The notes beneath the pieces are model-generated. The model saw nothing but the letters and a program-made list of their open reading frames with translations. It was not told the DNA's origin and did not search any database. The position numbers were made by a program, and so were the translations under genes. DNA of 63,783 bases, counting the filler, from Vannella sp. (lineage: Eukaryota): NCBI GenBank assembly GCA_023345925.1. It is 6 parts of 6 records of this genome, joined end to end, with 100 filler letters (N's around TTAATTAATTAA, not from the genome) between each part and the next. Parts side by side here need not be neighbours in the genome. Positions count along the whole stretch, not along the records: positions 17,028 to 31,877 come from JAJQQN010000982.1; 5 more parts are not named here. One strand, 5' to 3'. Position 1 is the stretch's first letter. Each line of letters starts with the position of its first letter. Shown piece after piece: positions 11,694 to 55,303 of this stretch.

Positions 11694-13184
11694 CTACGTC
11701 AGATCTACATGGGTAAAGGACTCTTCAGGTTCCAAAGAGACCTCTTCAAAGAACTCTGAATTGTCATCAAAGGGCGGTTCTTCATGTTTGGGGGGTTCTG
11801 TTGAAGATGGCTCATTATCGTTAAGGGGTGAGCCAATAGGGACCTCGTTTTCAACTGGATCCTCCTTTGTCATTCCTCCTTCACCTTCGATAGCGTGTGC
11901 ATCCTCCATTAGAGAGACATCAACCTCTTTTGTCTCGGCAATGGGCTCTGATTCATGGCGCATTTCAGTCTCTAAATCAGTTGTGTCAGGGTCCAATTGG
12001 TTGACAGAAGATTGTTGGCGTGAGAAGTCATCTTCATGCCCTCTGTCCTCAGGCTCTTCTTGATCACAAATGACTTCTGCTTCTTGTCTTTGCCGAAGTT
12101 CCTCTTCTCTTTGTTTCTCTTCTTCTTGCAGTCGAGCAGTTTCAGTCTTTTGAGGAGGTTCTTCTGCATCTTCGGAAGCCTTTGGCTCAGAGTTCTCAAG
12201 AGAAGCATCTCCTTGAGTAGTTTGATCAACAACGTTTGAATTTGCACTGGTTGCCTCCTCGGCTCGCAGGTGCTTGGGCTTGGGATGACCCAAAGCAGTT
12301 CTCCTATTAAAATCTTCTGCCTGAGTCCTCAGAAGCTCATGCTGGGCCAAGTGACGCCCTAAACCAAGGAGAAGTGAATAAAAGTACTGCTGGTCACCCT
12401 TTCTTAAGTTAGGATCGCCAGTCTCGGCTGCTTTTGAGATGTTTCGGGATTCAAGGTCAGATGAGTCCTCTTCCGCTTCTCTCTTCTGAAGACCCAATGA
12501 AGAGTAAAAGACATGTGCTAAGAGCTCTTCCTTGCTGTTGTAGCCCATCACAACCTTCAAAGAGAGTTTCAAGTCCGGATTGGACAGGAACATGATGCTC
12601 TGGTCGCTTCCTTCATCCACCTGGAAGGAAGAACCACTAAAGTACCTGAGAATAGCCTTGTGAGTGACCACAGAGGAGTCTGGACGAAGGAAAGCCACCC
12701 AGAAGTTGCGCTGGGGATCGATGAAGGTGTTCTCATCCGCGATGGTGCTCACTGTAGTAGGTAGCTCTTCCAAGGCCATTGCCATCTGTCCATCAAGCAT
12801 GGAATGATCGGCCATTTGTGCTGACAGCTCGAGAAGGATCGACTGGAAGAACACAGAAGTGGAGGAGCCGGGATCAAGAGTGCTTCCTTCATAGTACTCT
12901 ACTCGTATACGCTTACGTCCTGCTGCCACACTCAAGATAGCAGCGCATCGGCGATTGGAGATGTCCTGTTGGAAGGTCACCGAGGAAGGACCAGTGCAGA
13001 TGGCCTGGAAGTTCTTGTTCTTCATGTACAGGATGAGGTACTTCCGTACATAGTCAAAGCTCACGTTTGTATGGATGAAGCACATCCAAACGCCCTCTTC
13101 CACGAAGAATTTGGTGGCCTGGCTGATCGCCTCGTCCTTTGAAGGCGTTGGAGCGCTCTTTAACCAAGAGAACCATCCACTCAT
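11694..13184 (-). CDS. Uncharacterised 496-aa protein with an acidic disordered tail, paralog of 6739-7686
   Basis: Intact ORF with shared motifs and the same M.GWFS start. Confidence 0.75.
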   Translation of the reverse strand: MSGWFSWLKSAPTPSKDEAISQATKFFVEEGVWMCFIHTNVSFDYVRKYLILYMKNKNFQAICTGPSSVTFQQDISNRRCAAILSVAAGRKRIRVEYYEGSTLDPGSSTSVFFQSILLELSAQMADHSMLDGQMAMALEELPTTVSTIADENTFIDPQRNFWVAFLRPDSSVVTHKAILRYFSGSSFQVDEGSDQSIMFLSNPDLKLSLKVVMGYNSKEELLAHVFYSSLGLQKREAEEDSSDLESRNISKAAETGDPNLRKGDQQYFYSLLLGLGRHLAQHELLRTQAEDFNRRTALGHPKPKHLRAEEATSANSNVVDQTTQGDASLENSEPKASEDAEEPPQKTETARLQEEEKQREEELRQRQEAEVICDQEEPEDRGHEDDFSRQQSSVNQLDPDTTDLETEMRHESEPIAETKEVDVSLMEDAHAIEGEGGMTKEDPVENEVPIGSPLNDNEPSSTEPPKHEEPPFDDNSEFFEEVSLEPEESFTHVDLT

Positions 13185-13349
13185 CGTTTCTCTCTTCTTT
13201 CCTCAGTTGTTGTCAGACCCTTTCCAGGTTCAAGCGACGCGTCGCCCCAGCAACCAAAAAAATGACCAAAATCTCTCCAAAACTCGTTTCGGACCGAATC
13301 ATAATGATTCCTATCAGAATTAAGAGTTTCACTAGTTCTTACACCCGAA

Positions 13350-14876: not shown

Positions 14877-16927
14877 TTATACTTGATTTGTTGGTCCAAT
14901 GAGTTCGAGCAAGTATGCCAGTTCTTCTTTTCTGTGCTGCATGAGCCTCTGTTGGAGGAGAAAGTGATCAGCAGTCTTTGTGAGAATCATTTGACTCTCG
15001 TCCACGTCCACTCTCACCGAAAAGGCTGGATCCAACTGACAATCACCGAAATCGAAGTGAAACTGGCAGGTGCAACGCACTTGCCACTTGAGTTCGCCGA
15101 GGAATTGAGAAGAGCTATCATTGAATGGGCCGTTGATACAAAGACTCGCCTCTTGACTTCTCAAGAAATCCTGGATTTTTGGATCCTTGGAAGAAGCAAA
15201 GGGATAGATTCCATCGAACTGCCTTCCTTCCGATGCCACAATGTGCTCGAGTTTCATAATTCGGTCCTGCACTGCCAGCTTCACAATCATGCTCTTTACA
15301 GCTCCGTCACGAAGGTTCTCCAAGACCCAAATAAGCAATTTGTGCTTCTCTCTTTCATCTAGAGGAGGAATGTGTTTGTTTGACAATTCAACAAGAAGCC
15401 CGAGTTCGTTATCATTACATTTGCACATGAAATGCACAATCTGGCCTAAGGGGAGATTTGGAGTCCCAATCTCGGCACTTGCGATGTATCGGGCCATGAT
15501 TCTGGGAACACCCTCCTCTATCATCGATGGGTGCGCGGCAATTAAAGATGGAACAGGATTTTTGGCAAATATTCGTGAAGATTTCCCTCGGAGAAGATCC
15601 AAAATAAGCTCCATTTTAGAAGATGGGATGTCTCCCAGCACTCCCTCAAGAATGCTCCAAGGAAGATCCTTCAGGAGCTGGAACTGAACTCTGCAGAACC
15701 TCTTGGAAGGTGGCCCAACTCTTAGTTCTGTCACAATCTTGGACATACGGAACCTCATCGAAAGTGGAGTGTCGGGTCTGAGCAAACGAGTGATGAGATC
15801 GGATGTTCCTCCGAATCCCCAACACTTATGAATTGCAGCAGATTGAAGCCACCTCTCCTGGAGCTCCAACTCATCGTAATCGGGGATTTCCTTGGCAAAC
15901 CGGTTCAACCACAGAGGGTAATACAGGGATGCATAGATGAAGCCTTCCCTGGTCTTGGTAGAGTGTGCGTTCCAAGCAGCCAGAATGGCAGAGGCTGACC
16001 CTTGAAGCAGTCGGAAAACGATTGCAATCCTTTGTTTTCTGTCACTGTGGAATCTGGACACTTTCGAGAGTACTTTTGGATCATCTGGTCCCAACTCCAG
16101 GACCAACCTTGTCAAGACTGACAAATCATCTTTACGGCTGTAAACCACTTCTGGCAACGAGCTGGCCCTAAAGACGAAGATTGCGGTTGCCCATTCTGTA
16201 GCGAAAGTGTCGCTTTCCAACTTTTCCTCTTCTTCATTTTCGTGAAAGTTGAAGCTCGTTCCGGTCTCCACCTCGAAAGAGAATCCAAGAGGATCAAAGC
16301 AGGGCCCTTGGTCAGTCGCAAACCACTGAGAGACAGAGTTGCTGATGATCTTTCTTCCTTCCGACCAGGTTCGACCCTTGGAATCAGTGAGCCGATCGAA
16401 ATCTCCGAAGAAGACTCGGATCTTTGCACCTTCAGAAAGGTATTGGTTGCACTCATTGAGTCGCTTGATCATTGCCGCATTTTCTCTATCGAATTCTGGA
16501 CAGCCAGGACGGAGGAACATGCCCATCCAGCTAGAAGAACGAGAAGGAAGTGTAAACACTGGGTTGCTGCTCTCCCACTTCTCAAAGATCTCAGCGAGCT
16601 CTTCGGCTGGCTTGCAGCAACGATTTGGAGGTGGCTTGTCATCCACATACATCCAATCCAAGTCAAAGACCAGAAAAATGCGTTCTCCTGAGCTCAGTTC
16701 CTCGAAACGAACTTCTGATTTCGTGTAAACTAGAATAATGCCGCAGTAAAACGGGTTCTTGTCATGGTCAAAGGTTAGCACATGGTCATCTCCACCAACA
16801 CTGATGGTGATTGCCCCATCGGTAAAGTTAGAAGGCAGAAGAACGAGCAAGCGGAGAAAGGCGTCTCGTTCGGGTAACGGGAGGGTCACCTTTCTCCCTG
16901 GCATGTCGAGGATGAGTGCTTGGAGTA
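14877..16927 (-). CDS. 5'-partial protein with a degenerate 2OG-Fe(II) oxygenase-like N-terminal domain
   Basis: LLVLLPSNFTDGAITI..ILVYTKSEVRFEELSSGERIFLVFDL aligns by eye with the LvvxLPsxhxGG..HEvxpvxsGxRxvLvY pattern. Long ORF open to the gap. Confidence 0.55.
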
Positions 16928-17027
16928 NNNNNNNNNNNNNNNNNNNNNNNNNNNNNNNNNNNNNNNNNNNNTTAATTAATTAANNNNNNNNNNNNNNNNN
17001 NNNNNNNNNNNNNNNNNNNNNNNNNNN
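16928..17027. other. Artificial contig linker
   Basis: N44-TTAATTAATTAA-N44. Confidence 0.98.
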
Positions 17028-24243: not shown

Positions 24244-27200
24244 ATGGATTTATTAACAAGGACAGTTCAAATGGCCCCTTTTGGGGAGTTGGCTGGTCTT
24301 CGAGTGGTTTGGTTGGCCCTTCCAGTGTTGTTGGCATATGTGGGGGGCGCAACATTGTTGTGTTGTATGCTGGTATTGGTGGCGGTTGTGTTAAGCGAGT
24401 TAGCTCCTTCTCGGAACGAGAGGGAGGCGGAGAGTCCCATGGGTCTGCGGGGAGGACCAGAATCAGCGGCCCTTCTGCTCTCCTGGGAAAGAAACCATCA
24501 CCAAGTAGTGGAGAAAGTATCTCAAGTCGTTATTCAGACTGGAGATGCTCATGCGAGCGAGCTCATTGTCCGTCTGGATCGATTAGAGGCAACCGTCGAA
24601 TCCCTCGCGCAGAGGCACACCAGTATCTACCAACTTCTCCAACAACTTACCGAGCAACCTTCACCACCTTCTTGGACCGAGTGTCGGCCTGAGGTAACCC
24701 AAGACACCGACTTTCTCTCCAGAAGGTCTCTGAGCGAGGAGCTGCCTTCACCCCTCCAATCCCAGAGCATCTCTATGCAACAAGAAAACGAAGATATCAT
24801 CGATTCTATCCAGAGGACTCAACGGGACATCTCCATGGTCATGTCCCGGACAAACAGCGTCGCCACTCTGGTTCTGGAGCTTGATCAGGAGGAGGACGAT
24901 CCCTTGGGTGAGAACGACCCCCCAGAAGAAGAAGAAGTTGAACAAAGAAGAGAAAGTAGAGCAGCAACCGATGTCCCTTCAACGTCCACAGACTCCTTAG
25001 GAAGATTGACTCCTTTCCGCCCTCGGACGAGGAGTTCAACGGATAGCCAAGCTGGGTCGACCTCTGAGCTTGATTCTGTTGGAAGGCAAACATCTTTCAC
25101 AGCGCGGAACCACACCTTCTTAGCACGATCTCGATCTCAAAGGTCAGACGGCCAATTTGTTGCTGATAGGAGTCCCGCCCGAAGTGGCTTCTTAGGAGCT
25201 TCTCACAGACAGCCATCCAATATTAGAGACGTAGCTTTGGACCGAGAAACTCAGCAGAAGCTTGCAGAAGCTCTCCAAGACCCAGAGGCAGAGACATTTT
25301 TTCGCTCACAAACGATTGGAAAGGAAGTGAAGCCCAAACTGCATTTCCAAGACAAGATTGGTCTTGATTCCTCCTGTGCAATCATTTCTCGGGCCCAGAA
25401 GCTCCTCTTTTCGCTCAAAATTCATCTTCCAGATGGCGGGGAAACGGCCATTCAATGCTTCCAAGATGCGTCTGAGGCAGAGATCATTCAAACTCTTTTT
25501 CGCAGGTTACAGGGGCGCTTGGACTTGGTGGAAGGCGAGGTCCCCTCAATTGCAGGGCCAGAGGACTTTGTCAGAATCTCTGACATGCTCTTGAGCGATG
25601 AGTTTGCTCTCATGACAGCTTTGTTTGCTGCCGTTCCTCGAAATCAACGGGAAGAGCTGATTCACTTGTTCCTGCGCTTAACAGTCACTCAGAAGGTCAC
25701 AAAGCAACTCTTAACTGTTGCTGTGGAGAATGAAGTAGCTAATCATCGAGGAGGGATCCATACTCTCTTCAGAGATAGCGGATTTCGAACCACCTTGGTT
25801 GCGGCTTACTTTCGCTTTCACCTTCGAGAGCTGTTCCAACACCAGTTGAAGAGTATTCTGAAGGAGGGCTTAGAAGACCCAGCAAATCCCCTGGATCCGC
25901 TTGCCTTGAGCTTCAAAGTGTTCGATTTAGTCAAGCAAGTTGCAGAGAAGTTCCCAAAGGAGCTTCGTGACACATGGGCAATGCTTAGTGACAAGGCGGG
26001 AGCCAAGTTCCCTGAAGAGCAGGCGAAAGTCCTTGGAAGCTTCCTGTTCCTTCGTCTCATCTGTCCGCTCCTTTTGGAAGAAGAGCTAGCTCCTGGTATG
26101 CTCTATAACACCAAAATCCAGTTAAACTGATCCTCTTGTTAGCAACAAACGATCCAGAAGCAACAAAAGCCTGTATTCTACAAGTTTCTCGCAACCTACA
26201 GCAGATTGCCAATCAAGTAGGATCAAACAATTCTCCAGCTATGCTTGAGCGTCAGCAAAGTGCTGCTCGCCTTTTCCAAGACCTGACAGTAAGTCCTTGA
26301 GCCTAAGAGAAAATGTTGCTAACCCTTTGACTGCTTTAAGGATCCTCCGGTTGCAATTGAGCCGAAGACGAGAGTTCCTTCTGAGCTGTCTGGTCTCCCT
26401 ATCAGAGAGGCAGTAAATAAGCTCGTTGCAATGATCCTGCAGAACCATCGAGGTGTCCTTCGCGCCTTATTCAAACAAGACAAGAGTGGAGGAGATCTCC
26501 CACAGCAACTAATTGACATCCTAGGTTATCCACTTCAAGAGAGAAAGGCTTACCAGTTCCAAGTTACTGGCTCTGATTACTTTGTCCCTTCAGGAGATTA
26601 CAGGCCTCTGGTAGAGAACGCCTCTTTGCGATGCCACTTCTTGGAGAGCATGTTCCGGAATCCTTCTCTCTCGCTGGTTGAAAGAGGAGCTGTCTTTAAA
26701 CGGAAGCAAGAGGTAATGCAAGTCAATTGCCTTCTCAACAGTGATGCTCTCCCTTCCTGTCGCTTTGAATCCCTCGACGTTCACTACTTCCGAGAACGCG
26801 TTTTGACACCTGCGAATCAAGTAGAGATGCCACCTTTTCTATTTCGAGCTGACTTGAGAGAGACTCAAGATGCTTTGCTCCCCGCCACGTTCATAGTTCG
26901 GGTCTTCTTCGAGTCAAACGGGCTCAGCAAATCGATTCCAGCTTCTCCTAATCTCTCTGTGAACGAGCTGATGGAAAAGTCACTCAGCAAGTTCAAAGCA
27001 TTCCTCAAAGGTGAAAATGATCCCTCCAAGTTTGCTCTTCGCTTTGCTTCTACAGAGGAGTTCCTTCTAGAGGACGTACCCTTGGGCCTTTTAGCCCAAG
27101 TTTCCACTTGTTTAATGCGAAGACTACCTGTTCAATTCTTATTGGTTGTTCGGAAGAGTATTCCAGCTTTGGCTCTTCGTGAGCCGACTTCCATTCTTAT

Positions 27201-29541
27201 TCCAGAGAGCGTTGAACTGTCTCCCCAAATAACTTTGGGTGAACTTCCTGCTCTCTCTCCATACGCGGGCGATTGCCCTTTCGTTAACCTTCTAGAAGTC
27301 ACATCTACTCAACAAAGGCTTCGGTTGGTAGTAGATGGAGTCTCGCAACTTAACGCAATGGGTTCAAGGAGTCAGGACGCATCAAGCACTGGACTATCAG
27401 CCTTTGGCTTTGTTCAGGTTCAACTGGCCTTTAATGGCAAGTCCCTAGCCCCTATTGTCCGTACATCTCCATGTACTTTAGAACGACTGGTTTGGGCGGA
27501 GTCTTTGGAACTTGATATTCCTATCCGCTCAATTCCGCGTGAATCAAGGCTTTGCTTCACTCTTTTCTCTGTACACCCGAAGAATGAGACGAAAAACCCT
27601 CTCGCATGGGCTTCTTTCAGACTATTGGATGTTAACGATTGTCTTCCTACCGAATCTACAACTCTGGGGATGTGGGAGGGCGGGGAACAAGCAAACCCAT
27701 TCGGACCTTGCACTTCCTGCCAAAGCCCAGAAGCTGCTATCCTCCAATTCACCTTGCAAGGACTGCCAACTGACATGCTCCTTCAATTGCCCCAATTGGC
27801 TCCTCGAAAGTCTCCTTTAGATCTCTCAGACGATGTCTTGAAGTTGAGTCGTACTGAAGAGAAGCAATTAGAGCGCTTGTTTCAGAAAGATGCGTTGTAT
27901 AAGCCGACACCAGCAGAGCTTGCCTTCTTATGGAATACTCGTGAACACTACTGCACGGTTGCTTTGGGTCTCCCAAAGTTCCTTCTCAGTGTTCAATGGG
28001 GCGATTGGAAGCAAGTGGAAGAAGCGTACCGCTTATTAGAGAATTGGACAGCTTTGCAACCTCATGATGCATTGGAGCTGCTTGGAACTCAATTTGAAGA
28101 CCAGAGAGTCCGTCAGAAAGCTGTCAGTTGGATAGCAAAGATGAGTGATGATGACTTGGCTGACGTGCTTCTCCAATTAGTCCAAGTCCTGAAGATAGAG
28201 AAGAACCACATCTCTGCCTTATCCTTGTTACTTCTCCGCCGCGGTATTCAATCACCAGAGGTTGTTGGGCATCGCTTGTTCTGGCTCCTCTCAGCGGATA
28301 TGAACGATTCCAAGGAAAGCGAGCGGCTGAAACTCATAATGGAAGCACTCTTGTGGGCATTTGGCCCTCAGCGGAACATTTTCCTTCAACAGAAACAAAC
28401 TCTTGGGAAAATGCGGCTCATTTCAGCCTTGGTATCTGAAGAACGGACAGTCACAGCAAAGAGCGATAAGTTGGCTTCATTGCTCGAGACGACTCGATTC
28501 TCTCCAGTGTGGAATTGCCCATACCAACCTTCTATCGTTGCTGGACAAGTTGCTCCTTCCAAGTGCAGGATAATGGACTCGGCTCTTTCGCCATTGCGGC
28601 TAGAATTCCACTGCGTGGAGGAGTTACCAACCTGTCCAATGGTGTTGACCTTATTCAAAGCCGGAGATGACTTGAGACAAGACACTCTCACTCTACAAAT
28701 GATTCAAATCATGGACAAACTCTGGAAGCAAAATGGGTTGGACATGCAAATGTCACCTTATGGGTGCTTGTCTACTGGTACTAACGAAGGCTTGATTGAA
28801 ATCGTTCCTGATTGTGTCACAACGGCAGATATCCACAGGAGTGCTGCAGGAGTTCGAGGCGCGTTCTTGGAGAATTCAGTGGCCAACTGGCTGAGGAAGC
28901 AAAACCCCAGCGAGACAGATTACAAGCAAGCTCGTGAGGTGTTCACTCGTTCTTGTGCTGGTTATTGTGTAGCAACTTACATTCTTGGAATTGGTGACCG
29001 ACACAACGACAATATCATGATAAGCCGGGCAGGCCATCTCTTCCGTACGTTCTTTCTGCTTCAAGAGCAACTTCGTCTCACTTACATGCCGTAGATATCG
29101 ATTTTGGGAGATTCTTGGGTAAATGGCAGACATGGAAGGGCCTCAAGAGGGACCGAGCGCCTTTTGTCTTCACACCTGAGTTTGCCTTTGTCATGGGAGG
29201 AAGAAGCTCAGAGGATTTTGAAAGATTCTGCCAACTGGCAAGTCAAGCTTTCAATGTCTTACGAAAGAACGCTCGCATCTTCTTCAGTCTCTTTTCCCTG
29301 GTAAGTGAGATAGCTAACATCTTTGTCAAAGCTTCTAAGTGCTTTTTAGATGTTGGCTGCGGGAATGCCAGAGCTGAAGAACGCAGATAGTTTTGCTCAT
29401 CTAAATGAAGCCTTTGCTCTGAAAAAGACGGAAGAGGAAGCCGACCTGTTCTTCCGCTCTCTCATTTCCAAGTCACTGAATACCACTGCCACTCGATTGA
29501 ATAATGCATTGCATATTCTCGCCCGTTCTGCTGAACAATAA
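24244..29541 (+). CDS. Class I-type phosphoinositide 3-kinase with N-terminal transmembrane segment(s) and an internal RasGAP domain (1699 aa); introns 26096-26142, 26289-26340, 29045-29094, 29301-29349
   Basis: Kinase motifs FKAGDDLRQD, GIGDRHNDN and spliced HIDFG, with RBD, C2 and helical regions upstream. RasGAP motifs TLFR, GSFLFLRLICP, LQQIANQ. The five exons total 5100 nt in one open frame. Confidence 0.88.
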
Positions 29542-37933: not shown

Positions 37934-38134
37934 CGCCTTGAAGTTCTCCTGAAGAACCAGAAATAAGTAACCAGTTGGGCTCAACCCTAAGTCCACTTGG
38001 GAACTTTTCGCTCGCTCTTTCTTTTGTGTGGATCTGAATTTTCTGGACTCCTTTTCTCTTCCAATAGAGTCACTAAATGACATAGCCGAAGAAAAATGGT
38101 CGGGGTGCATTATTTCCCGGCCTGTGTCCGCACC

Positions 38135-39765
38135 ATGCTGGAGTTCTTCTTCGCTGCTGTCGCGTTTGTTGTTGGGATCTTTGCATTCTTCTTCCGAAAG
38201 CGTGGTACAGTCCCTGCCATTGATGCTTCTAGCGCACTTCCCGTCCTTCTTGAGCAGGAAGCGACTGGGAGGTCCAACAATGGACCACAGATCGATTTGC
38301 CAGTGGCTGAGCGAGTGATGGAGATTCCCATTCAGGAGTCAGCAAGAAGCTTAGAGAAGACTAACAACCAGGAGAACGAAGCTGACCGCCTGGCGAAGGA
38401 GGCTTCTCAACGACAAGTAGAGGAACGTGACCAGCGTGCCAAGGAAGCTGATAGGAAGTCCGAAGAGGAGCGCTCACGAAAGGAAGCTGAGAAAGCTCGC
38501 GTCACCCAAGAAGCAAAGCTTGCTAAAGAGAACGCTGACCGACTCGAACAGGAGTTGAAAGAGAAGGAGCGAGTGGCAAATGCTGAGAGAAGTGCAAAGG
38601 AGGAGAAAGAACGTCTTGCTAAGGAGGAGAAGGAGCGTCTGGCAAAGGAGGAGAAGGAACGTCTTGCTAAGGAAGAGAAGGAACGTCTTGTTAAGGAGGA
38701 GAAGGAACGTCTTGCTAAGGAAGAGCAGGAACGTCTTGTTAAGGAGGAGAAGGAACGCCTTGCTAAGGAGGAGAAGGACCGTCTGGCTAAGGAAGAGAAG
38801 GAACGTCTTGCTAAGGAGGATAATGAGCGTCTTGTTGAGGAAGCTAAACGGAAGGCATCTGAGGAGGAAGCTAAGCGCAAGGCATTAGAGGAAGCTCAAA
38901 GAGCTGAGCAAGAGAAAGTGCGCCTCTTAAAGGAAGAAGAAGATCGCCTTGCAGACGAAGCTCATCAAAAGACTGAGCAGGAGCGCCTCATCAAAGAGGA
39001 GGCTGATCGCAAAGCAAAAGAATTGGCCGCTACAAAAGAGGCTCTACTGGAATCCATGCGAACGGACCAAGCTGAGTCCCTTGGCAAGCCTGATGAATCC
39101 CAACAAGAGGTGGAAGTGACCCTTCGTCAGAAAGACAGTCAAAAAGTTCCCTTTGAATTCAGCCAACTCCCTCTCTCTGAAGCGGTCCTTGACCTGGTAA
39201 GTGAAGTGGATTCTTATTCAGGGTAGCTAAATGACATGGATGTTCTCAGACTGCTCCCAAAGATAAGTCACGAGTAGGTTCAATGCGTGTAAAGAAGGTG
39301 AGGCCATCTTCTAGTAGAATGTCAGTCCCTACGATGCCACCAGTCCGTGTAGAGAAACCTGCTCAACCCTCAGGCGCAAGTCTCTTCCCAGCCGGGTTCA
39401 ATCCTTTGGCAGGATTGAAGGGCTTAAAGAAAACCAGTTCTGTCCCCGAAGAGAGTGGGGAGGATACACCTCCTGTAGTTTCCCATGGTCATGGAATGCA
39501 CTTACCCAAGTTTGACCCGGCGGCTATGCTGAAGGGACTCAAATCCACTAAGAAGGATACTCCTGAAGAGGCTAGCTCCACTGTGGAGCCAGAGCCAGTG
39601 CAAAAGGGTCCATTGGGTGGATTTAATCCAGCGGCTGCCCTCAAGGGACTGAAATCAACAAAGAAGCCAGTATCTGGGGAGACTCCTCAACCTTCTTTGG
39701 GGGGATTCAACCCTGCAGCTGCTCTCAAGGGACTGAGGTCCACCAAGAAGGACACCCAAGAGTGA
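38135..39765 (+). CDS. N-terminally membrane-anchored coiled-coil protein with KEEKERLA repeats and four C-terminal F(N/D)P..LKGL(K/R)(K/S)T motifs; intron 39197-39249
   Basis: Signal-anchor [23 protein letters not shown], an E/K helical stalk, and repeated WH2-like LKKT/LKST motifs. Confidence 0.7.
38598..38838 (+). repeat. 24-bp coding tandem repeat (about 10 copies, KEEKERLA/V)
   Basis: AAGGAGGAGAAGGAACGTCTTGCT units seen directly. Confidence 0.9.
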
Positions 39766-43203: not shown

Positions 43204-44860
43204 TCAAGGGCACGATACGGATTTGATCTTGATCCTTCCTGTCCCATCCATTCTAGTGAGTGGCCGGAAGAGGGGATTTGAGGGGAACTTACGAATTAGA
43301 TTAGCTTTACGGTGCAATCGCCAACGAATGCGCATTTCAATCACTAATCCACAGATAGCAACCAGCAGGATAGCTCCTATCACCATTCCTAGGGAAATCC
43401 ACGCCAGACTAGGACTATCTTGGTTGTTGGACTGGCAAGAGTCCGCTCCTTTTCCTGTCAAGAGAAGGACAAAGTTCGTGAGATGGACTGTTTGACCACA
43501 CAGAAGGTCGCCTTCCACACTAGTCCCCTCATTGGTGCCGTTACCTTTGGCAGGGAAAGTGGTGAGGCACTCGTCTTCACACGTCCATTTGTCTTTGCGC
43601 TCGTCGTAAAAGCTCAGGCACACGCTCTCTCCCTTCTTTGTCGTGTTGGGAAGGGTCAAACAGATAGTCAGTGGCGAGTCCAATTGGGTGATGGAGTTGC
43701 CTTGGCCGTCCAAAAGTGTGATGTTCAGGACAGTGCTGGCCAGCACTTGCTCGTTAGAAGAATTGCCTATGGGACTGCCAATGTAGGAAGTGACCAAAGT
43801 GGTGTTGGCTTCGTTGCTCAAGTTGGGAGGGACAAAGAGGGCTCCCACTGGATCCTCACCTGGAGAGCTGGAGAGCTCCACAAACTCGCCAGAAGTGAAG
43901 TTGGAGGGAAAGATAATTGCAGCAATCAAAGAAGGACTGATGGAGGAGAAGGAAGTGGCAGAGGAAGTGATGGATGGTGACTCGCTCTCAAGAGTGCTTG
44001 GCAATCCTGATTGATTTGGACTTTGGAAAACTTCACTTAAAAAGTACGATTCGGTTGCGAGTGGGGAAGTACTGGGTGCCTCACTAACGAAAGGTGAAGA
44101 GGTTTCAGAAGAAGTGAAACTTGATGAACTGGGTGTCCCTTGTGCACTGAAAGAGGACGATGTAGAGACAGAGCTCGTTTCACTACCACTGGAAGAGGGT
44201 GTTGATGAAGCAGTAGGGATCGTACTTGAAGAGGAAGAACTTGAAACACTCGCACTGCCACTCGAAGATGGCGTTGCTGAACTAGTAAGGCTCGTGCTGA
44301 GAGAAGGAGAGCTTGAAACGCTCCCACTGCCACTCAAAGAGGGTGTTGTTGAAGCAGAGGGACTTGGACTGAGCGAGGGAGTACCAGAGTTGCTGCCACT
44401 CCAAGAGGGTGTTGAAGAAGCAGAACTGCTTGTGCTGAGGGAAGGAGAGCTTGACACGCTTCCACTGCTGCTAGGAGAGGACGTTGCGGACACACTCTCA
44501 CTGCCGCTTGGAGAGGCCGTGGCACTGCAGGAGGGGGTAACTGATCTACTGGCGCTGGAAGAGGGCGTCTCTGAGGAAGTGAGACTTGCGCTGGAAGAAG
44601 AAGAGCTTGATGCACTCGTACTACCACTTGGAGAGGTAGAAGGGCTTGCACTTAGAGAAGGAGAGCCTGATACGCTCGCACTACCACTTGGAGAGGCAGA
44701 AGGGCTTGCACTTAGAGAAGAAGAGCTTGATACGCTCGCACTACCACTTGGAGAGGTAGAAGGGCTTGCACTTAGAGAAGGAGAGCTTGATACGCTCGCA
44801 CTACCACTGGGAGAGGTAGAAGGGCTTGTGCTGGGAGAAGGGGAGCTTGATGCACTCGTA
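43204..44860 (-). CDS. 5'-partial cell-surface protein: Ser-rich 20-aa repeats, GAIN/GPS-like domain, single TM, short cytoplasmic tail
   Basis: C.SFYD..W.C..C..CGQTVHLTNFVLLL is a GPS motif, followed by the TM segment WISLGMVIGAILLVAICGLVI. Confidence 0.8.
44160..44860 (-). repeat. 60-bp tandem repeat encoding a Ser-rich stalk (near-perfect 44590-44860, degenerate below)
   Basis: The unit GAGAGCTTGATACGCTCGCACTACCACTTGGAGAGGTAGAAGGGCTTGCACTTAGAGAAG recurs with period 60 up to the contig end. Confidence 0.9.
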
Positions 44861-44960
44861 NNNNNNNNNNNNNNNNNNNNNNNNNNNNNNNNNNNNNNNN
44901 NNNNTTAATTAATTAANNNNNNNNNNNNNNNNNNNNNNNNNNNNNNNNNNNNNNNNNNNN
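44861..44960. other. Artificial contig linker
   Basis: N44-TTAATTAATTAA-N44. Confidence 0.98.
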
Positions 44961-50000: not shown

Positions 50001-52811
50001 TTACTCGAAGAACTCTTCCGTGGCCCTTGCTTGGAAGAGATGAATCATTTGGTGTCGGAAAGTGCCGACAGTAAGCTGGTCTTTCGGGTCACTAAGGATA
50101 GAAAGAGACGCATTGTTATCAAAGGGAGTCGGCCTGGTTTGGTTTGCTTTGATCACTCGGAGGAGATTAAGAACACCAAATTTGGGTGGAGTATGCTGCC
50201 ATAGCATGTCAAGGTGCTCTTGGTCGTTTCGTTCCACGCACCAAGTGAGTACACTATGGAAGAGAGCACTGTGGGGAGTGAAAGAAGAAGGCAATTGGTC
50301 CTTTTCTAACTTGTACTTTCGCAAAAGGGTGAATATCTGAGTCCACATATCATGATCTAGAAGATAGTCTACTGCTCGTTGTCCCAATCCAGCCAGACAA
50401 AGCAGCATTGTCAGAACAGTGGTTTGAGCATGATAGATCTCCGGCACTTGGTCCTCCGTTTCTCGGAACAGAATGGGAGGTAATGCAGTCACAGCGCGGT
50501 CTAAGAACGAACGAAGCATCTTCTTTGGTGGAAGAGTAGAAGAGAGATGAGACTCGTGAACCAACAAGACAAAGGGAATCAGAAACCCGGGCTTGAGCTT
50601 GTGATAAAGACGGCAAAGGTTTGTAAACAACTGGTGTTCTTTCGAGCGTTGCCCGTTCAACTGGACGTCTGTGATAGATTCTTCTGTTTGCTGGAAAAGA
50701 AGATTCTGAGAACTCAAAAGGCGGGGAAATACAAAATGAGTCCTTTCGGGATTCCTTCCATCATAGTCGAGGTCCTTCCAGATAAGGTCCAGCTCTAAGA
50801 ACCGCTCTAGTCCCTCGAGGGAACGCATTGGGTGCTGCATTAAGATCATGTCGAAGGAAGCCCGGCTGGTTTGGAGAAGATCTTTCCCTGACTTGCAGAA
50901 ACTGAGGAGCCACTTGGCCTCTTCCTTATCATTTGGATGCTCTGAACCATCAGAAGGAGGTAAATGCATCGCCGACACAGCCTCTGAGATAGAGACTGTG
51001 GTTTGCTGGGCTGATAACTGATTATACTGGTCTAAAAGGGAAAGCAAAGTTGAGTTGAGTGGAGTGTGAAGGAAATAAGAGCGCCTAGTCTTGATCCGGA
51101 TATCATTGGCACTCGCATCCGCGGACAATTGGTCCTCTCCAATGTAGTCCTGGAGGAATCGAGATACCTGTTCATGAAGGAACGGTTTGTGTGCCTTATC
51201 CCGCAGCAAAAGCAACAACAAAGCTGGATTCTCCAGGTGTGGAGCAAGCTCCCTGGCCAGGCGTTGCTGAATCTCCACCAGCCTGTCCCCGCTCACTCCC
51301 ACCGCCTTACTACCGCGTGTATAAGCTATCAGCTCACGCAAAGTGTGTTTGGCAGACATCCTTTCCATCTTCCACTCCTTACTAATGATGGCCTGATAGT
51401 TCTCGGGTAGCTTGGCCTGAGTATCAACAGCATTCAAGGCATTCACTTGCTGAATGACTGGGAGCGGCTGTATTTCGTACAAACCACCCGCTGGCTTCCA
51501 AATAGACACAAAAGCACCATCCAGAAGCACTGAGCCAGCATTGGGAATGGTAAACGCGCCATGAACGGTCACCTTCGACTGCAATGTCACAGAAAAGTCC
51601 ATATTTGGAGGGAGAACGCATTGCCCAAGCATCCCGCCCGTGCGCAGGTCACACACGCACATGCCCTTGGCAAAGAAGATCATGAATACATGCCGGCGGG
51701 AGATAACAGCACGAGCGTCTGACATGATGCCAATGGCTGGAGGGACTGCCAAGCGGCAAAGGAGGCGGCAGGAGACCTCGTCACGGAGCTGAAAGTAGTT
51801 CAAAAGGAGCACACGACCCGATCGTTCAACTAGAAGGAGGTCTTCTGTGTTGTGGTGCTTGATCATGGCGAGGACGTCGGTTGGGACGAGGAACTCGACC
51901 ATCATCGCCTCTCCTGGGAGTGTGGCTGGTGGCGTAGTGTTGAGGAAGGAGAAGTGCTTCCCAGTGAAGGGCAAGAAGCCTATTTGTGTGACTGTGCGGA
52001 CCCAGACTCCTCGTTTGGTCACAGCAACTTCCAGAACTTCCTCTTTGAACGCTCCAACGAGTGCTGCGTTGGGATTAGGGATCTTCTGGAGTTGCATATC
52101 ATCAGGTACGACATCTGTAGCTCGACGTGTCGCGTTGGGGTCCCGGGAATCGATAATCAACTGGCGGCAACCGATCCGGTGCTCATGGCACCGCAAAGGA
52201 CCTCCCAATGACCGCCTGTAAGAGATCTCTTGTAGGACATCTGCACCTCCTTTCGAGTTATCTGTCTCCCACCAGACTAGGTGATTGGTAGAAGGAGAAA
52301 AGAGAAGATCCCGCACTTGCACGGTCACCCCCTCGGTCAGTTGCGTCCCTGCGTGGACAGACTTCCACTTGTACACTTGTCGTTCGATACCTGTGACCCA
52401 CTGCCAACAATGAAGAGTGCCTGTGCTTGTCAGAGCGAACAGGCGAAGACCGGCGGAGGTGGAGCTGAAGAAGACCTTGGAGAAGTACTTTCCGCTCTTG
52501 TTCAGCCCCACGGTGAAGATAGGCTGCTCTCCTGCTTGCTCAGGAGCTTGATTGATGTTATCAGCTTGCTGTAACACCTTAAGGACGTCCCTCTCCTTCG
52601 CACTATCGAGGAGAAAGCTCTGCGGGCAGTTGTCGAACACACACAGCACCTTCCGGCCCTGGAACAGCACCGCACGATGCCCTACCGTTTGAGCAACATC
52701 ACACACCTCCAAAGCATCCACTCCACTCGCTAACAGCTGAGTAAACAGCCACGAACCGCGCAAAAGAGGAGCAGAGTCAGTCGTAACCCCGCGGCAAGCG
52801 TACGTCGCCAT
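50001..52811 (-). CDS. HPS6-like (BLOC-2 subunit) protein, ~936 aa
   Basis: N-terminal beta-propeller-like region and helical C-terminus. LFTNLCRLYHKLKPGFLIPFV and LW...P..LL..QLTVG recall HPS6 C-terminal motifs. Confidence 0.6.
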   Translation of the reverse strand: MATYACRGVTTDSAPLLRGSWLFTQLLASGVDALEVCDVAQTVGHRAVLFQGRKVLCVFDNCPQSFLLDSAKERDVLKVLQQADNINQAPEQAGEQPIFTVGLNKSGKYFSKVFFSSTSAGLRLFALTSTGTLHCWQWVTGIERQVYKWKSVHAGTQLTEGVTVQVRDLLFSPSTNHLVWWETDNSKGGADVLQEISYRRSLGGPLRCHEHRIGCRQLIIDSRDPNATRRATDVVPDDMQLQKIPNPNAALVGAFKEEVLEVAVTKRGVWVRTVTQIGFLPFTGKHFSFLNTTPPATLPGEAMMVEFLVPTDVLAMIKHHNTEDLLLVERSGRVLLLNYFQLRDEVSCRLLCRLAVPPAIGIMSDARAVISRRHVFMIFFAKGMCVCDLRTGGMLGQCVLPPNMDFSVTLQSKVTVHGAFTIPNAGSVLLDGAFVSIWKPAGGLYEIQPLPVIQQVNALNAVDTQAKLPENYQAIISKEWKMERMSAKHTLRELIAYTRGSKAVGVSGDRLVEIQQRLARELAPHLENPALLLLLLRDKAHKPFLHEQVSRFLQDYIGEDQLSADASANDIRIKTRRSYFLHTPLNSTLLSLLDQYNQLSAQQTTVSISEAVSAMHLPPSDGSEHPNDKEEAKWLLSFCKSGKDLLQTSRASFDMILMQHPMRSLEGLERFLELDLIWKDLDYDGRNPERTHFVFPRLLSSQNLLFQQTEESITDVQLNGQRSKEHQLFTNLCRLYHKLKPGFLIPFVLLVHESHLSSTLPPKKMLRSFLDRAVTALPPILFRETEDQVPEIYHAQTTVLTMLLCLAGLGQRAVDYLLDHDMWTQIFTLLRKYKLEKDQLPSSFTPHSALFHSVLTWCVERNDQEHLDMLWQHTPPKFGVLNLLRVIKANQTRPTPFDNNASLSILSDPKDQLTVGTFRHQMIHLFQARATEEFFE

Positions 52812-52849
52812 CGGGGAGCCTCCAAATGACCTCCCACAACCACTTTTTA

Positions 52850-55303
52850 ATGGCCTCCTCCTTCCAGCCGCTCCTCGTCGTCGAAGGCGCCCGTTTGGAG
52901 GCCGCTCGCGCTCAGTTGGAGGAGCTGAGAGGCCTAGTGGAGGTTGTAGCGAAGACCTGTGGTGAGGAAGAGGCAAGGAGGTTACGACAGCTGTGCGGGG
53001 AGCTCAAGCGGAGCCTTTGTGGGGACCCACCGCCCTCTCAAGCTCCTCGACCGTTGCCAAGAGCTCTTCCCAAGGACCCTGCTCCACGTCCTCCAGTGAT
53101 ACAAGTAACGCAAGAAGTGGTGGACGAGGAGAAACCTGCTGTACCAGCCGCTCGGGCGCGTGGGAGAGGTTCGAGAGGTGGCTCTCGTGGAAGTCAACGT
53201 GGAGCTCCTCGTGGAGCTGGCAAAGACCGTCTACAACCCTCTCATGAGTATCCATCTATGGAAAGGACTTCTTCTTCTCCTTCTGTGGTCCAAACTCCGC
53301 CTCCCAGCCGAGCTCCTCCTCCTTTCACTGCCCCGGCCTTTGAGCCCGCCTTACGAAGGGATACGGACCAAGGAAGGGCGCAAAGAGAGTTCTCTCCTCT
53401 CTCAGCATCTGTACGCTTGCCTTCGTCATCCTGGGCGAGTGCACAACTGCCCAAAAGCCCAGGCCCCGTTCGACCACTCTCGAGCGGTACTCCTGCCTCT
53501 GTTGCGGCCCCCCTAGGCACACGGACTGAACCAACAACTATAAGTGCAGATGCCACAGCTAGTGACGCGCTCTCAGTATGTACTTCTGTGATACAGCGAG
53601 GACGAGGACTAACTCGTCTCTAATAGCCTCAGATCTTCAAGGTTGGGATGGTTTGGAAGAGAAAGGTGTCTAACAGGACTCTATCTTCTTGGAAGTCGCG
53701 CTACTTCCGCCTCAGGAATGGTGCCATTAGCTATCACAACTCTGAGACGGTAGGAAGTCCTCCCTTGTAGTCCTCTGGGGTTCTCACAGTGTTTAGGACC
53801 TTACACCGTTGGGCATATTGGATGTGAGTGGTATGAATGTCTATCGGCTGCAGGCAGAGGAGGATGGAAGCAAGGAGAGGAAGCGCTGGGCAATGGTATT
53901 CGAGATCGTTGGTGGAGCCACGTATCACATCGCTGTAGAGAACGAAGGAGATCTACTAGACTGGCTCAAGGCCATTGAGAGCATCCACAAGGAGAATCCA
54001 CACTCCCGCTCTGACTTGGGACAGGGAAAGGGAAAGAAGCAAAAGAACCTCCTCGGCTTCGCTCTCCGGGGCGGTGGCAAGAACAAGATTGCCATTGGAG
54101 CACCATCTCGGGCCCCCTCAGATTCAGATGCATCTGGTTCATCGCCCTCTGCGCCTTCAGTCTCAGCGGGACCGGGAGGGCAGAGAGCTGCCATCATCAA
54201 AGAGATCTTCAACACAGAAAGGGACTACTTGGCGGACCTCAAAGTGATAACTGGGTTCTATATCATGCGCTTGGAGACCTTCCAGATCATGGGAAAGAGT
54301 GAGAAAGACGCTATCTTTGCCAATGTGGAGGAACTTGTGCCTATTCACGAAGATCTTGTGCGGGACCTTGCAGAAGAGACCAACTCGGAGGATCCTTGCT
54401 TTGCGCATATATTCATCTCTTATGTACATCGGTTTACACCGTACTGTAACTACTGTGCCTCCCAGACCAACTCCGTTGCTGAGATTGCTCGTTATCGAAG
54501 AGAAAATCACAACTTTGCTGGCTGCTGTGATGTAAGGAAGAAGTGAGGCTTCTGATGGGTTCTGATGGTGTATAGGACCTCCAACAAGAGCCAGAATCAA
54601 AGAAACTTGATCTCCCGAGTTATCTCATCAAGCCAATGCAGCGGATATGCAAATATCCTCTTCTCCTTCGGGTATGTGCTTCTCTGGACTCTCAAGTGAC
54701 TGAACTCACTCACTCACTCATCCTCATCCTGAAGGAACTCCAAAAAGCAACTCCGGAAACTCACCAGGAATACGCACAAATAGCAGAAGCTGCAGACGTT
54801 GTTGGAGACATGCTTACCACGATTAATGAAACCAAACGCGCGACTGATAATGTGATGCAACTCTTCGAGCTCTCTGAGATGATACCGGATTTGGTATGGC
54901 TCCACTTCTCTCCTGAACCGCTTCTCATTCAATCTAGACCGTCAATTTGCAGAGCAGCCCTCGGGAAATAGTCAAAGAGACAGAATTTAAGAAAGTGCAG
55001 ACAGACCCGTCAAGGGATCCCTCCAAACAGAATGTCTGGCTGCTCACAGATATGTTGATTGTGGCGAAGCGGAAAGACAAGAACAAATTCACCTTCCGTC
55101 TCTCTCTGCCACTGGACAGTGTGGTGGTATGGGACTTGGACCCGTCTGGTACGTCTTTGGAACAGAAAAACGGATTCTCTGTCTTCCACACAGACCCTTC
55201 CATCAACGCCAAAGTCGTCATTTTAGCCAGCTCGCCCGCAGAGAAAACCCTTTGGATGGAACTCATCAACAGTTGTATTGCCAATACCGGCTTTCTCTCG
55301 TGA
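52850..55303 (+). CDS. PH-DH-PH Rho guanine nucleotide exchange factor, multi-exon
   Basis: N-terminal PH (WKSRYFRL..WLKAI), DH (IIKEIFNTERDYLADL..IFAN..LIKPMQRICKYPLLL..INE), C-terminal PH (WMELI). Confidence 0.9.

What the first reader, a model, noticed from the sequence alone, without database searches (positions are those of the whole stretch)
24244..29541. Membrane-anchored PI3K carrying its own RasGAP, inserted inside the ABD-like domain: a Ras effector fused to a Ras off-switch
Seen: canonical 47- and 52-nt introns join the 629-aa and 887-aa ORFs into one 1699-aa frame. Domain order: hydrophobic TM region (24301-24396); disordered linker; first half of an ABD-like ubiquitin fold (LKIHLPDGG..ASEAEIIQTLFRRL, 25414-25512); RasGAP (arginine-finger TLFR 25762-25773, FLFLRLICP 26041-26067, LQQIAN); second half of the ABD-like fold (YPLQERKAYQF..PSLSLVERG, from 26527); RBD, C2, helical and kinase domains with intact catalytic motifs. 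Known: class I PI3Ks are activated by Ras-GTP through the RBD and are soluble. In amoebae, Ras/PIP3 patches that drive macropinocytosis are bounded by separate RasGAPs such as NF1. I know of no described RasGAP-PI3K fusion. Inference: a self-limiting Ras-to-PIP3 module (built-in timer or negative feedback), or the GAP fold acts as a second Ras sensor.
Basis: partly seen in the sequence, partly recalled or inferred. Interest (0 to 1): 0.88.

Follow-up and report, generated by a model that had tools for sequence, protein, structure and literature searches.

The report
PI3K with a built-in RasGAP
This protist gene encodes a lipid kinase (PI3K) of the kind that Ras normally switches on, with a complete Ras off-switch (RasGAP) domain inserted inside it and a predicted membrane anchor; the layout recurs in several other unnamed protist genes and likely makes a self-limiting signalling enzyme.

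Summary
Confirmed and extended. Five exons (four GT-AG introns of 47-52 nt) give one 1699-aa frame: predicted two-helix membrane hairpin, coiled coil, disordered linker, half an adaptor-binding domain (ABD), a whole RasGAP module, the other ABD half, then RBD-C2-helical-kinase. It is not a one-off or a splicing artefact: relatives P0008 (1993 aa) and P0119 carry GAP and kinase in one uninterrupted frame, P0128 runs from the hairpin to the helical domain, and three more genes are seen in pieces. Their kinase cores group together. A profile from unfused PI3Ks picks the stretch just before the GAP as the missing ABD half in 6 of 6 tests, and an AlphaFold model of P0008 aligns both halves to one ABD. 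Two corrections: the activation loop is class II-like, so the product may be PI(3,4)P2 or PI3P, not PIP3, and 'class I' is unresolved; the GAP keeps the arginine finger and FLR but lacks the variable-loop KE, so activity is likely, not shown. No description found in ten literature searches. No RNA or activity data for this gene.

The parts
24244..26095 (+). exon 1 (aa 1-617): hairpin, coiled coil, linker, ABD N-half, first two thirds of the RasGAP
24286..24402 (+). predicted two-helix membrane hairpin (aa 15-34 and 36-53)
   Evidence: hydropathy 2.54; two helices in the AF2 model of exon 1; two hydrophobic segments also in P0128, P0129, P0132, one in P0008
24460..24651 (+). predicted coiled-coil helices (aa 73-136)
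   Evidence: long helices in the model; crude heptad score in 5 of 5 N-termini, no control
25189..25209 (+). conserved linker motif FLGASHR (aa 316-322), function unknown
   Evidence: pattern matches 10 of 294 proteins held, all family members, five genes
25399..25515 (+). ABD N-half (beta1-beta2-alpha1, aa 386-424)
   Evidence: top window of 690 in the ABD-completion scan; beta-beta-alpha in the model
25549..26517 (+). RasGAP module with its extra domain (aa 436-725), spread over exons 1-3
   Evidence: homolog model aligns to p120GAP 718-1035, Z 26.2
25771..25773 (+). arginine finger R510
   Evidence: aligns with the TLFR arginine of p120GAP; invariant in alignment A4 of 38 rows
26053..26055 (+). 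FLR arginine R604
26096..26142 (+). intron 1, 47 nt, phase 1
   Evidence: crossed without a break by P0008 and P0128; P0129 and P0132 lose similarity at about the same place
26143..26288 (+). exon 2: GAP helix alpha7 (R634 where most GAPs have K) and variable loop without KE
26289..26340 (+). intron 2, 52 nt, phase 0
   Evidence: crossed without a break by P0008, P0128, P0141
26341..29044 (+). exon 3: last GAP helices, ABD C-half, RBD, C2, helical domain, kinase up to the catalytic loop
26521..26691 (+). ABD C-half (aa 727-783)
   Evidence: Atlas lead to PI3K_p85B at 0.86, under 0.9 so a lead only
26881..27177 (+). Ras-binding domain (aa 847-945)
   Evidence: PF00794 38.4 bits; the two most conserved N-terminal lysines kept in 6 of 6 family rows
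27310..27792 (+). C2 domain
   Evidence: PF00792 62.3 bits
27841..28368 (+). helical (PIK) domain
   Evidence: PF00613 149.3 bits
28369..29511 (+). kinase domain over exons 3-5 (FKAGDD 28654, DRHNDN 28996, DFG 29100)
29045..29094 (+). intron 3, 50 nt
29095..29300 (+). exon 4 with the class II-like activation loop (Q1579 at 29127; KRDR)
   Evidence: best PDB hits are PI3KC2alpha; column counts
29301..29349 (+). intron 4, 49 nt
29350..29541 (+). exon 5: kinase C-terminus and stop; no room for a PX or C2 tail

Best explanation
One gene encodes a class I/II-type PI 3-kinase with a whole RasGAP module inserted into a loop of its adaptor-binding domain and a predicted N-terminal membrane hairpin; it likely works as a self-limiting Ras effector, in which Ras-GTP would switch the kinase on through the RBD while the attached GAP would switch nearby Ras off. 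Shown: the domain order, the insertion point between helix 1 and strand 3 of the ABD, intact kinase motifs, the arginine finger and FLR, and the recurrence of the layout in about seven genes. Inferred: the hairpin leaves both ends in the cytosol and holds the enzyme at a membrane through a long flexible linker, so Ras would act by allostery or orientation, not by recruitment. RBD and GAP use the same switch surface of Ras (established knowledge, recalled), so the GAP would act on neighbouring or released Ras molecules: kinase output and Ras shut-off become tied 1:1 in space (incoherent feed-forward), giving short or size-limited lipid patches. The product is more likely PI(3,4)P2 or PI3P than PIP3.
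For: Spliced frame without stops. Uninterrupted GAP-to-kinase frames in P0008 and P0119, hairpin-to-helical in P0128; the model aligns to P0008 in one HSP, aa 309-1695, 34%. Kinase cores group together without the GAP in the alignment: five rows 100/98, six with P0119 93/85. ABD-completion scan 6 of 6. AF2 model of P0008 625-1252 (pLDDT 79): p120GAP 718-1035 aligns to model 50-391 (Z 26.2, rmsd 3.6, 309 aligned); p110alpha (4ykn) aligns over model 1-628 with 191 residues and tetra-ubiquitin over 5-625 with 147, more than the RBD plus one ABD half could supply. Arginine finger in 6 of 7 genes and FLR or ARL arginine in 7 of 7 at about 30% identity. RBD lysines kept.
Against: Variable-loop KE is present in 93 of 123 non-family GAPs and in 0 of 6 family rows (five genes); PMC9408373 counts this region among the three fingerprints and reports that IQGAP1 stays inactive even with an arginine put in. 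P0119 has no arginine finger. The window's own GAP is the most diverged of the close group (end branch 1.55) and lacks about 17 residues of the profile. That RBD and GAP act on the same GTPase is assumed; class II enzymes associate with Rabs instead (PMC8930771).
Confidence: 0.5

Rival explanations
1. GTPase hand-off: the GAP is active but on a different small GTPase from the one read by the RBD (for example off for one Ras or Rap, on for another Ras, Rap or Rab), so the protein converts one membrane identity into the next while making a 3-phosphoinositide.
For: Family-wide loss of the variable-loop KE with the catalytic arginines kept suggests changed specificity. Class II-like activation loop; class II enzymes associate with Rabs (PMC8930771, passage).
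Against: No direct evidence; RBD keeps the lysines shared with Ras-binding PI3Ks of the set.
Confidence: 0.25
2. The GAP fold is a weak or dead enzyme used as a second Ras sensor or allosteric handle: GTPase binding to the insert moves the ABD and gates the kinase, taking over the job of a regulatory subunit.
For: P0119 keeps the insert without an arginine finger; KE is missing in all family rows; the insert sits in the domain that binds the regulatory subunit in class IA enzymes.
Against: Arginine finger kept in 6 of 7 genes that are about 30% identical; P0119's GAP does not group with the other family GAPs and is a long branch, so it may be a derived loss.
Confidence: 0.22
3. Two adjacent genes (membrane RasGAP and PI3K) or an assembly or splice-prediction artefact.
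For: No transcript of this gene was seen; unspliced ORF1 stops at 26128-26130 and is deposited as a 619/628-aa protein.
Against: Uninterrupted homologs cross both junctions; the GAP needs exon 2 and the start of exon 3 to be complete, and the ABD needs exon 1.
Confidence: 0.03

Closest known systems
Class I PI3K catalytic subunits (p110alpha/beta/delta/gamma; dictyostelid class I enzymes)
   Same: ABD-RBD-C2-helical-kinase order; best PDB hits of exon 3 are p110beta/delta (E 2e-88); short RBD-C2 linker; no PX/C2 tail.
   Different: ABD interrupted by about 300 aa of RasGAP; predicted membrane hairpin; Q or E at the K942 position and D at 950, where 68 of 73 other rows have K and E.
Class II PI3Ks (PI3KC2alpha and protist class II-like enzymes)
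   Same: Activation loop Q...KRDR; exon 4's best PDB hits are PI3KC2alpha; the KR pair that binds the 4-phosphate of PI(4)P (PMC8930771) is kept. Four protist class II-like rows also have an ABD.
   Different: No C-terminal PX and C2, no helical-bundle insert between RBD and C2, GAP insert, and a W-K-G loop signature found only in the family (4 of 128 rows).
p120GAP and neurofibromin GAP-related domain
   Same: Fold including the extra domain (Z 26.2 and 25.3 for the P0008 model); arginine finger, FLR, basic residue in helix alpha7.
   Different: Variable-loop KE absent; sits inside a lipid kinase, not beside C2, PH or Sec14 domains.
Plexin cytoplasmic region
   Same: Membrane-anchored protein in which a RasGAP fold and a ubiquitin-fold domain are nested (PMC3138255, passages; plexin B1 Z 22.0; Atlas lead 0.83).
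   Different: Mirror topology: plexins have the ubiquitin fold inserted in the GAP; here the GAP is inserted in the ubiquitin fold. Plexins have no kinase.
Dictyostelium RGBARG, NF1 and IqgC
   Same: RasGAPs that bound Ras/PIP3 patches in macropinocytic cups (PMC7416115, PMC5813501, passages).
   Different: They are separate proteins from the PI3K; RGBARG joins RasGAP to a RhoGEF, not to a Ras effector enzyme.

Membership tests
RasGAP (PF00616) | profile score above the curated cut-off | tested here: met
   28.8 vs 28.3 bits on exon 1 alone; 100 bits for the spliced chain with a profile of 140 non-family GAPs
RasGAP (PF00616) | GAP fold | tested here: met
   homolog model vs p120GAP Z 26.2, TM 0.77 of target; exon-1 model of the window's own protein hits NF1 and p120GAP in all 11 matches at E<=0.001
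RasGAP (PF00616) | arginine finger and FLR motif | tested here: met
   R510 and R604 align with p120GAP
RasGAP (PF00616) | alpha7/variable-loop Ras-binding residues | tested here: inconclusive
   alpha7 basic residue kept (R634); KE absent in 6 of 6 family rows, but also absent in 30 of 123 other GAPs
RasGAP (PF00616) | accelerates GTP hydrolysis on Ras | not testable with these tools
   needs an assay
class I PI3K | ABD-RBD-C2-helical-kinase order | tested here: met
   ABD is split, and an ABD also occurs in protist class II-like rows
class I PI3K | basic residue at the p110alpha K942 position of the activation loop (its role in 5-phosphate binding is recalled) | tested here: not met
   Q1579; Q, Q, Q, E in four fused rows against K in 68 of 73 others
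class I PI3K | kinase core branches inside class I | tested here: inconclusive
   outside the class II-like group (98/97) but on the same side as it at 59/26; no class III root
class I PI3K | makes PIP3 from PI(4,5)P2 on Ras-GTP stimulation | not testable with these tools
   needs an assay
class II PI3K | C-terminal PX and C2 domains | tested here: not met
   the frame ends a few residues after the last kinase helix; no such Pfam hit in exon 5
class II PI3K | helical-bundle insert between RBD and C2 (mammalian class II, PMC8930771) | tested here: not met
   about 45 residues between RBD end and first C2 strand
class II PI3K | Q...KRDR activation loop | tested here: met
plexin-type split GAP | GAP split by an inserted ubiquitin-fold domain | tested here: not met
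   the GAP is continuous (model 50-391 aligns to p120GAP 718-1035) and the ubiquitin fold is the split one

The most novel reading that the evidence does not exclude
An undescribed protist subfamily of membrane-tethered class I/II PI3Ks arose once by insertion of an active RasGAP into the ABD. It is a single-chain Ras timer: one polypeptide reads Ras-GTP, writes a 3-phosphoinositide (PI(3,4)P2 rather than PIP3) and erases the Ras signal, supplying the local negative feedback that models of self-organising Ras/PI3K patches need, in one assayable molecule.
Probability: 0.4. Interest if true: 0.85.

Novelty: new variant of a known kind. Interest (0 to 1): 0.76.

Why it matters
Ras effectors and Ras inactivators are normally separate proteins. 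Models of macropinocytic Ras/PIP3 patches call for an inhibitory process beside the positive feedback (PMC5813501, passages). A natural chain that holds effector and GAP at 1:1 on a membrane makes the timer and feed-forward ideas testable with point mutants in one protein. It also shows that the PI3K ABD tolerates a 300-residue insert in the loop after helix 1, and adds a deep class I/II lineage with a class II-like substrate loop to PI3K evolution. Limits: hosts are unnamed, and nothing here shows activity.

Tried and rejected
No genome is held for the window, so paralogs and the host's Ras set were not examined. No RNA holder was listed. Searches with the exon-1 GAP part and with whole exon 3 among longer proteins found only the window's own ORF and two unfused kinases; relatives appeared only with kinase-drawn words and the full HMMER library. 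Pfam PI3K_p85B did not hit either ABD half at E<=1, and each half alone scores weakly on my own profile. Exon 2 alone has no Pfam or meaningful PDB hit. A hidden GAP in the other PI3Ks was looked for and not found: 6 of 129 PI3K rows hit a broad GAP profile, all family members; P0103, whose loop resembles the family's, has none. The metagenome pattern scan gave two short kinase-only contigs (L001 77% to P0119, L002 74% to this gene), too short to show the fusion. The complex predictor was not available, so closure of the window's own ABD halves was not modelled; closure rests on the P0008 model. The first mixture-model tree on all rows did not finish; FastTree and smaller IQ-TREE sets replaced it. 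Earlier scan findings: none returned. Rejected: two genes; GAP as chance hit; single-pass reading as the only option for the N-terminus; 'class I, PIP3' as settled. Host lineage could not be fixed: the family does not nest in any named group in the trees.
Full report
Gene model. The region 24244-29541 has no ambiguous bases. Exons 24244-26095, 26143-26288, 26341-29044, 29095-29300 and 29350-29541 join into 1699 codons and a stop, with four GT-AG introns of 47, 52, 50 and 49 nt; three of the four hold a CTRAY-like branch word and all are lower or equal in GC than the long exons. No genome and no RNA run were available, so splicing is not seen directly for this gene.

Domains. Exon 1 passes the Pfam RasGAP cut-off narrowly (28.8 vs 28.3); exon 3 holds PI3K_rbd, PI3K_C2, PI3Ka and the kinase. 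The exon-1 part hits p120GAP and neurofibromin in the PDB (E 3e-7 to 2e-5) with TLFR and FLR aligned. A profile of 140 GAPs outside the family covers the spliced chain as one domain, aa 443-652, across intron 1 (91 bits; 100 for the chain), while unspliced ORF1 stops matching at aa 612.

It is a family. Of 1628 kinase-region hits, 120 were listed; 2 of the 120 carry RasGAP with the PI3K domains: P0008 (1993 aa, the closest by identity at 47%) and P0119 (1721 aa). P0008 aligns to the spliced model in one HSP, aa 309-1695, 34% identity. Its cluster has two 1993-aa members on six contigs, the longest 6014 and 6045 nt; the frame fills the contig, which suggests a transcript (inference). A HMMER search of 1.84 billion representatives with P0008 625-1252 (1333 hits, 150 listed) added P0128 (1456 aa, hairpin to helical domain in one frame), P0129 and P0131 (N- and C-parts, both with a longest contig of 174,395 nt), P0132 and P0141 (both 2,069,832 nt), and the P0130 cluster (GAP, ABD C-half and RBD start; no kinase seen). 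With the window this makes about seven genes, none named by its source. Two-gene and artefact readings are therefore very unlikely.

One origin. On helical-plus-kinase columns only, the fused rows form one group: FastTree 98 (4 of 124 rows), IQ-TREE mixture quick 94 (3 of 44 chosen rows), careful 100/98 for five rows and 93/85 with P0119 (30 chosen rows). The loop signature W.G.KRDR occurs in the four fused rows and no other of 128. In a FastTree of 148 GAP domains six family rows and one fragment (P0197) group at 96; P0119's GAP is a long branch and does not join.

Split ABD. I built an ABD profile from 69 unfused PI3Ks (of 116 with an RBD; rows with poor cover dropped) and joined every 38-aa upstream window to the ABD C-half. 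The best window was the LPxGG stretch just before the GAP (its counterpart in P0119) in 6 of 6 tests: model 15.1 bits vs 10.1 for the best distant window, P0008 22.0 vs 10.4, P0119 24.0 vs 18.8, P0128 21.4 vs 17.0, P0129/P0131 21.0 vs 14.6, P0132/P0141 22.3 vs 10.5; the native upstream sequence added about 1 bit or less. The six tests are related sequences, and scores are far under intact in-profile ABDs (median 70). An AlphaFold2 model of P0008 625-1252, from an alignment with family rows and plain GAPs but no unfused PI3K (pLDDT 79, pTM 0.70; ABD C-half partly under 50), gives beta-beta-alpha, GAP helices, then the remaining strands. Structure alignment puts p120GAP 718-1035 on model 50-391, ending at the residue before YPL; p110alpha and p110gamma align from model residue 1 or 4 to 628 or 627 with 191 and 194 residues, and linear tetra-ubiquitin from 5 to 625 with 147. 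These counts exceed RBD plus one half, so the two halves most likely close into one ubiquitin fold; the output gives ranges, not residue pairs, and this is the homolog, not the window's protein. The last GAP helices lie in exon 3 with the kinase.

N-terminus. The model of exon 1 shows two helices (15-34, 36-53), long helices at 73-136 and 177-200, disorder to about 330, then the ABD half and GAP (its Foldseek hits at E<=0.001 are all NF1 or p120GAP). P0128, P0129 and P0132 have the same double hydrophobic segment of 37-40 aa; P0008 has one, perhaps cut short; P0119 has none. Among 122 long kinases only P0008 and one other have such a segment. A hairpin would leave kinase and GAP in the cytosol (inference). 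The linker motif FLxASHR is confined to the family.

Is the GAP active? PMC9408373 (passages) names three fingerprints: finger loop, FLR, and alpha7/variable loop. The finger arginine is kept in 6 of 7 genes (not P0119), the FLR arginine in all seven, the alpha7 basic residue in all that cover it (R here). The variable-loop KE is in 93 of 123 other GAPs and in none of six family rows. I put an active GAP at about 0.7, possibly with altered specificity.

Which lipid? Kinase motifs are intact. Exon 4's best PDB hits are PI3KC2alpha. At the p110alpha 942 position (numbering counted from DFG; residue names checked against passages of PMC13589923) the four fused rows have Q, Q, Q, E, six PX/C2 class II rows have Q, and 68 of 73 others have K; position 950 is D in fused and class II rows and E in 68 of 73 (83 rows matched the pattern). 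The KR pair that binds the 4-phosphate of PI(4)P in PI3KC2alpha (PMC8930771, passages) is kept. The role of K942 in using PI(4,5)P2 is recalled, and the family's invariant lysine at 945 could stand in, so PIP3 is doubtful, not excluded. The tree keeps the family outside the class II-like group (98/97) but cannot say on which side it branches (59/26), and protist class II-like rows have ABDs too. 'Class I/II' is as far as the data go.

Mechanism. Most likely (0.5) a membrane-tethered, self-limiting Ras effector; rivals are GTPase hand-off (0.25), a sensor or allosteric GAP fold (0.22) and two genes (0.03). Only anatomy and conservation are shown; binding, catalysis, topology and cellular role are inferred. 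A role in cups or phagosomes is an analogy to Dictyostelium (PMC7416115, PMC5813501, PMC4374526; passages), and the host is unidentified: short introns and neighbours such as Zn2Cys6, RGS, RhoGEF and Rab GDI genes fit an amoeboid protist but do not prove it.

Novelty. Ten searches of the open library were run; the six aimed at a RasGAP-PI3K fusion or PI3K architectures listed no paper whose title or abstract start describes one. The PI3K evolution survey PMC4617754 has no occurrence of RasGAP in its text or 12 held supplements and says amoebozoan enzymes have four domains only. The RasGAP survey PMC4374526 mentions PI3-kinase only in a reference; its one held supplement is 627 characters, and its figure source data were not seen. 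Subscription papers and InterPro architecture lists were not searched. The nearest structural analogy is the plexin tail, with the nesting reversed (PMC3138255, passages). Verdict: real, conserved, apparently undescribed architecture; new variant of a known kind; interest 0.76.

Noticed in passing
P0119, relative of window 24244-29541: Same GAP-in-ABD layout but no arginine finger, no N-terminal hydrophobic segment and an Ala/Thr/Gly-rich insert in the GAP: a natural pseudo-GAP version; L001 holds a kinase 77% identical to it.
   Followed up: partly
window 25189-25209: FLxASHR motif followed by a short helix in the disordered linker, kept in five family genes and in no other protein held; may be an autoinhibitory or docking motif.
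   Followed up: partly
proteins: Other protist PI3Ks carry unusual added domains by precomputed Pfam: cNMP-binding (P0054, P0114, P0122, P0123), ubiquitin-conjugating (P0053), RhoGEF plus calponin homology (P0117), KIX (P0049), DEP (P0118), protein kinase (P0031).
   Followed up: no
P0133: 2020-aa protein with cadherin-like and Ig-like repeats joined to three RasGAP stretches, receptor-like.
   Followed up: no
window 50001-53003 (-): 1000-aa open frame with a weak HPS6 C-terminal match (E 0.001, under cut-off); possible BLOC-2 subunit.
   Followed up: no
window 43204-44904 (-): Ser/Thr/Pro-rich repeat protein next to a run of N, mucin-like surface protein.
   Followed up: no
window 38081-39226 (+): N-terminal hydrophobic segment followed by [12 protein letters not shown] charged repeats; no Pfam match.
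   Followed up: no
window 11694-13202 (-) and 14877-16979 (-): Long open frames (502 and 700 aa) without a Pfam match at E<=0.01; the second starts beside a run of N.
   Followed up: no
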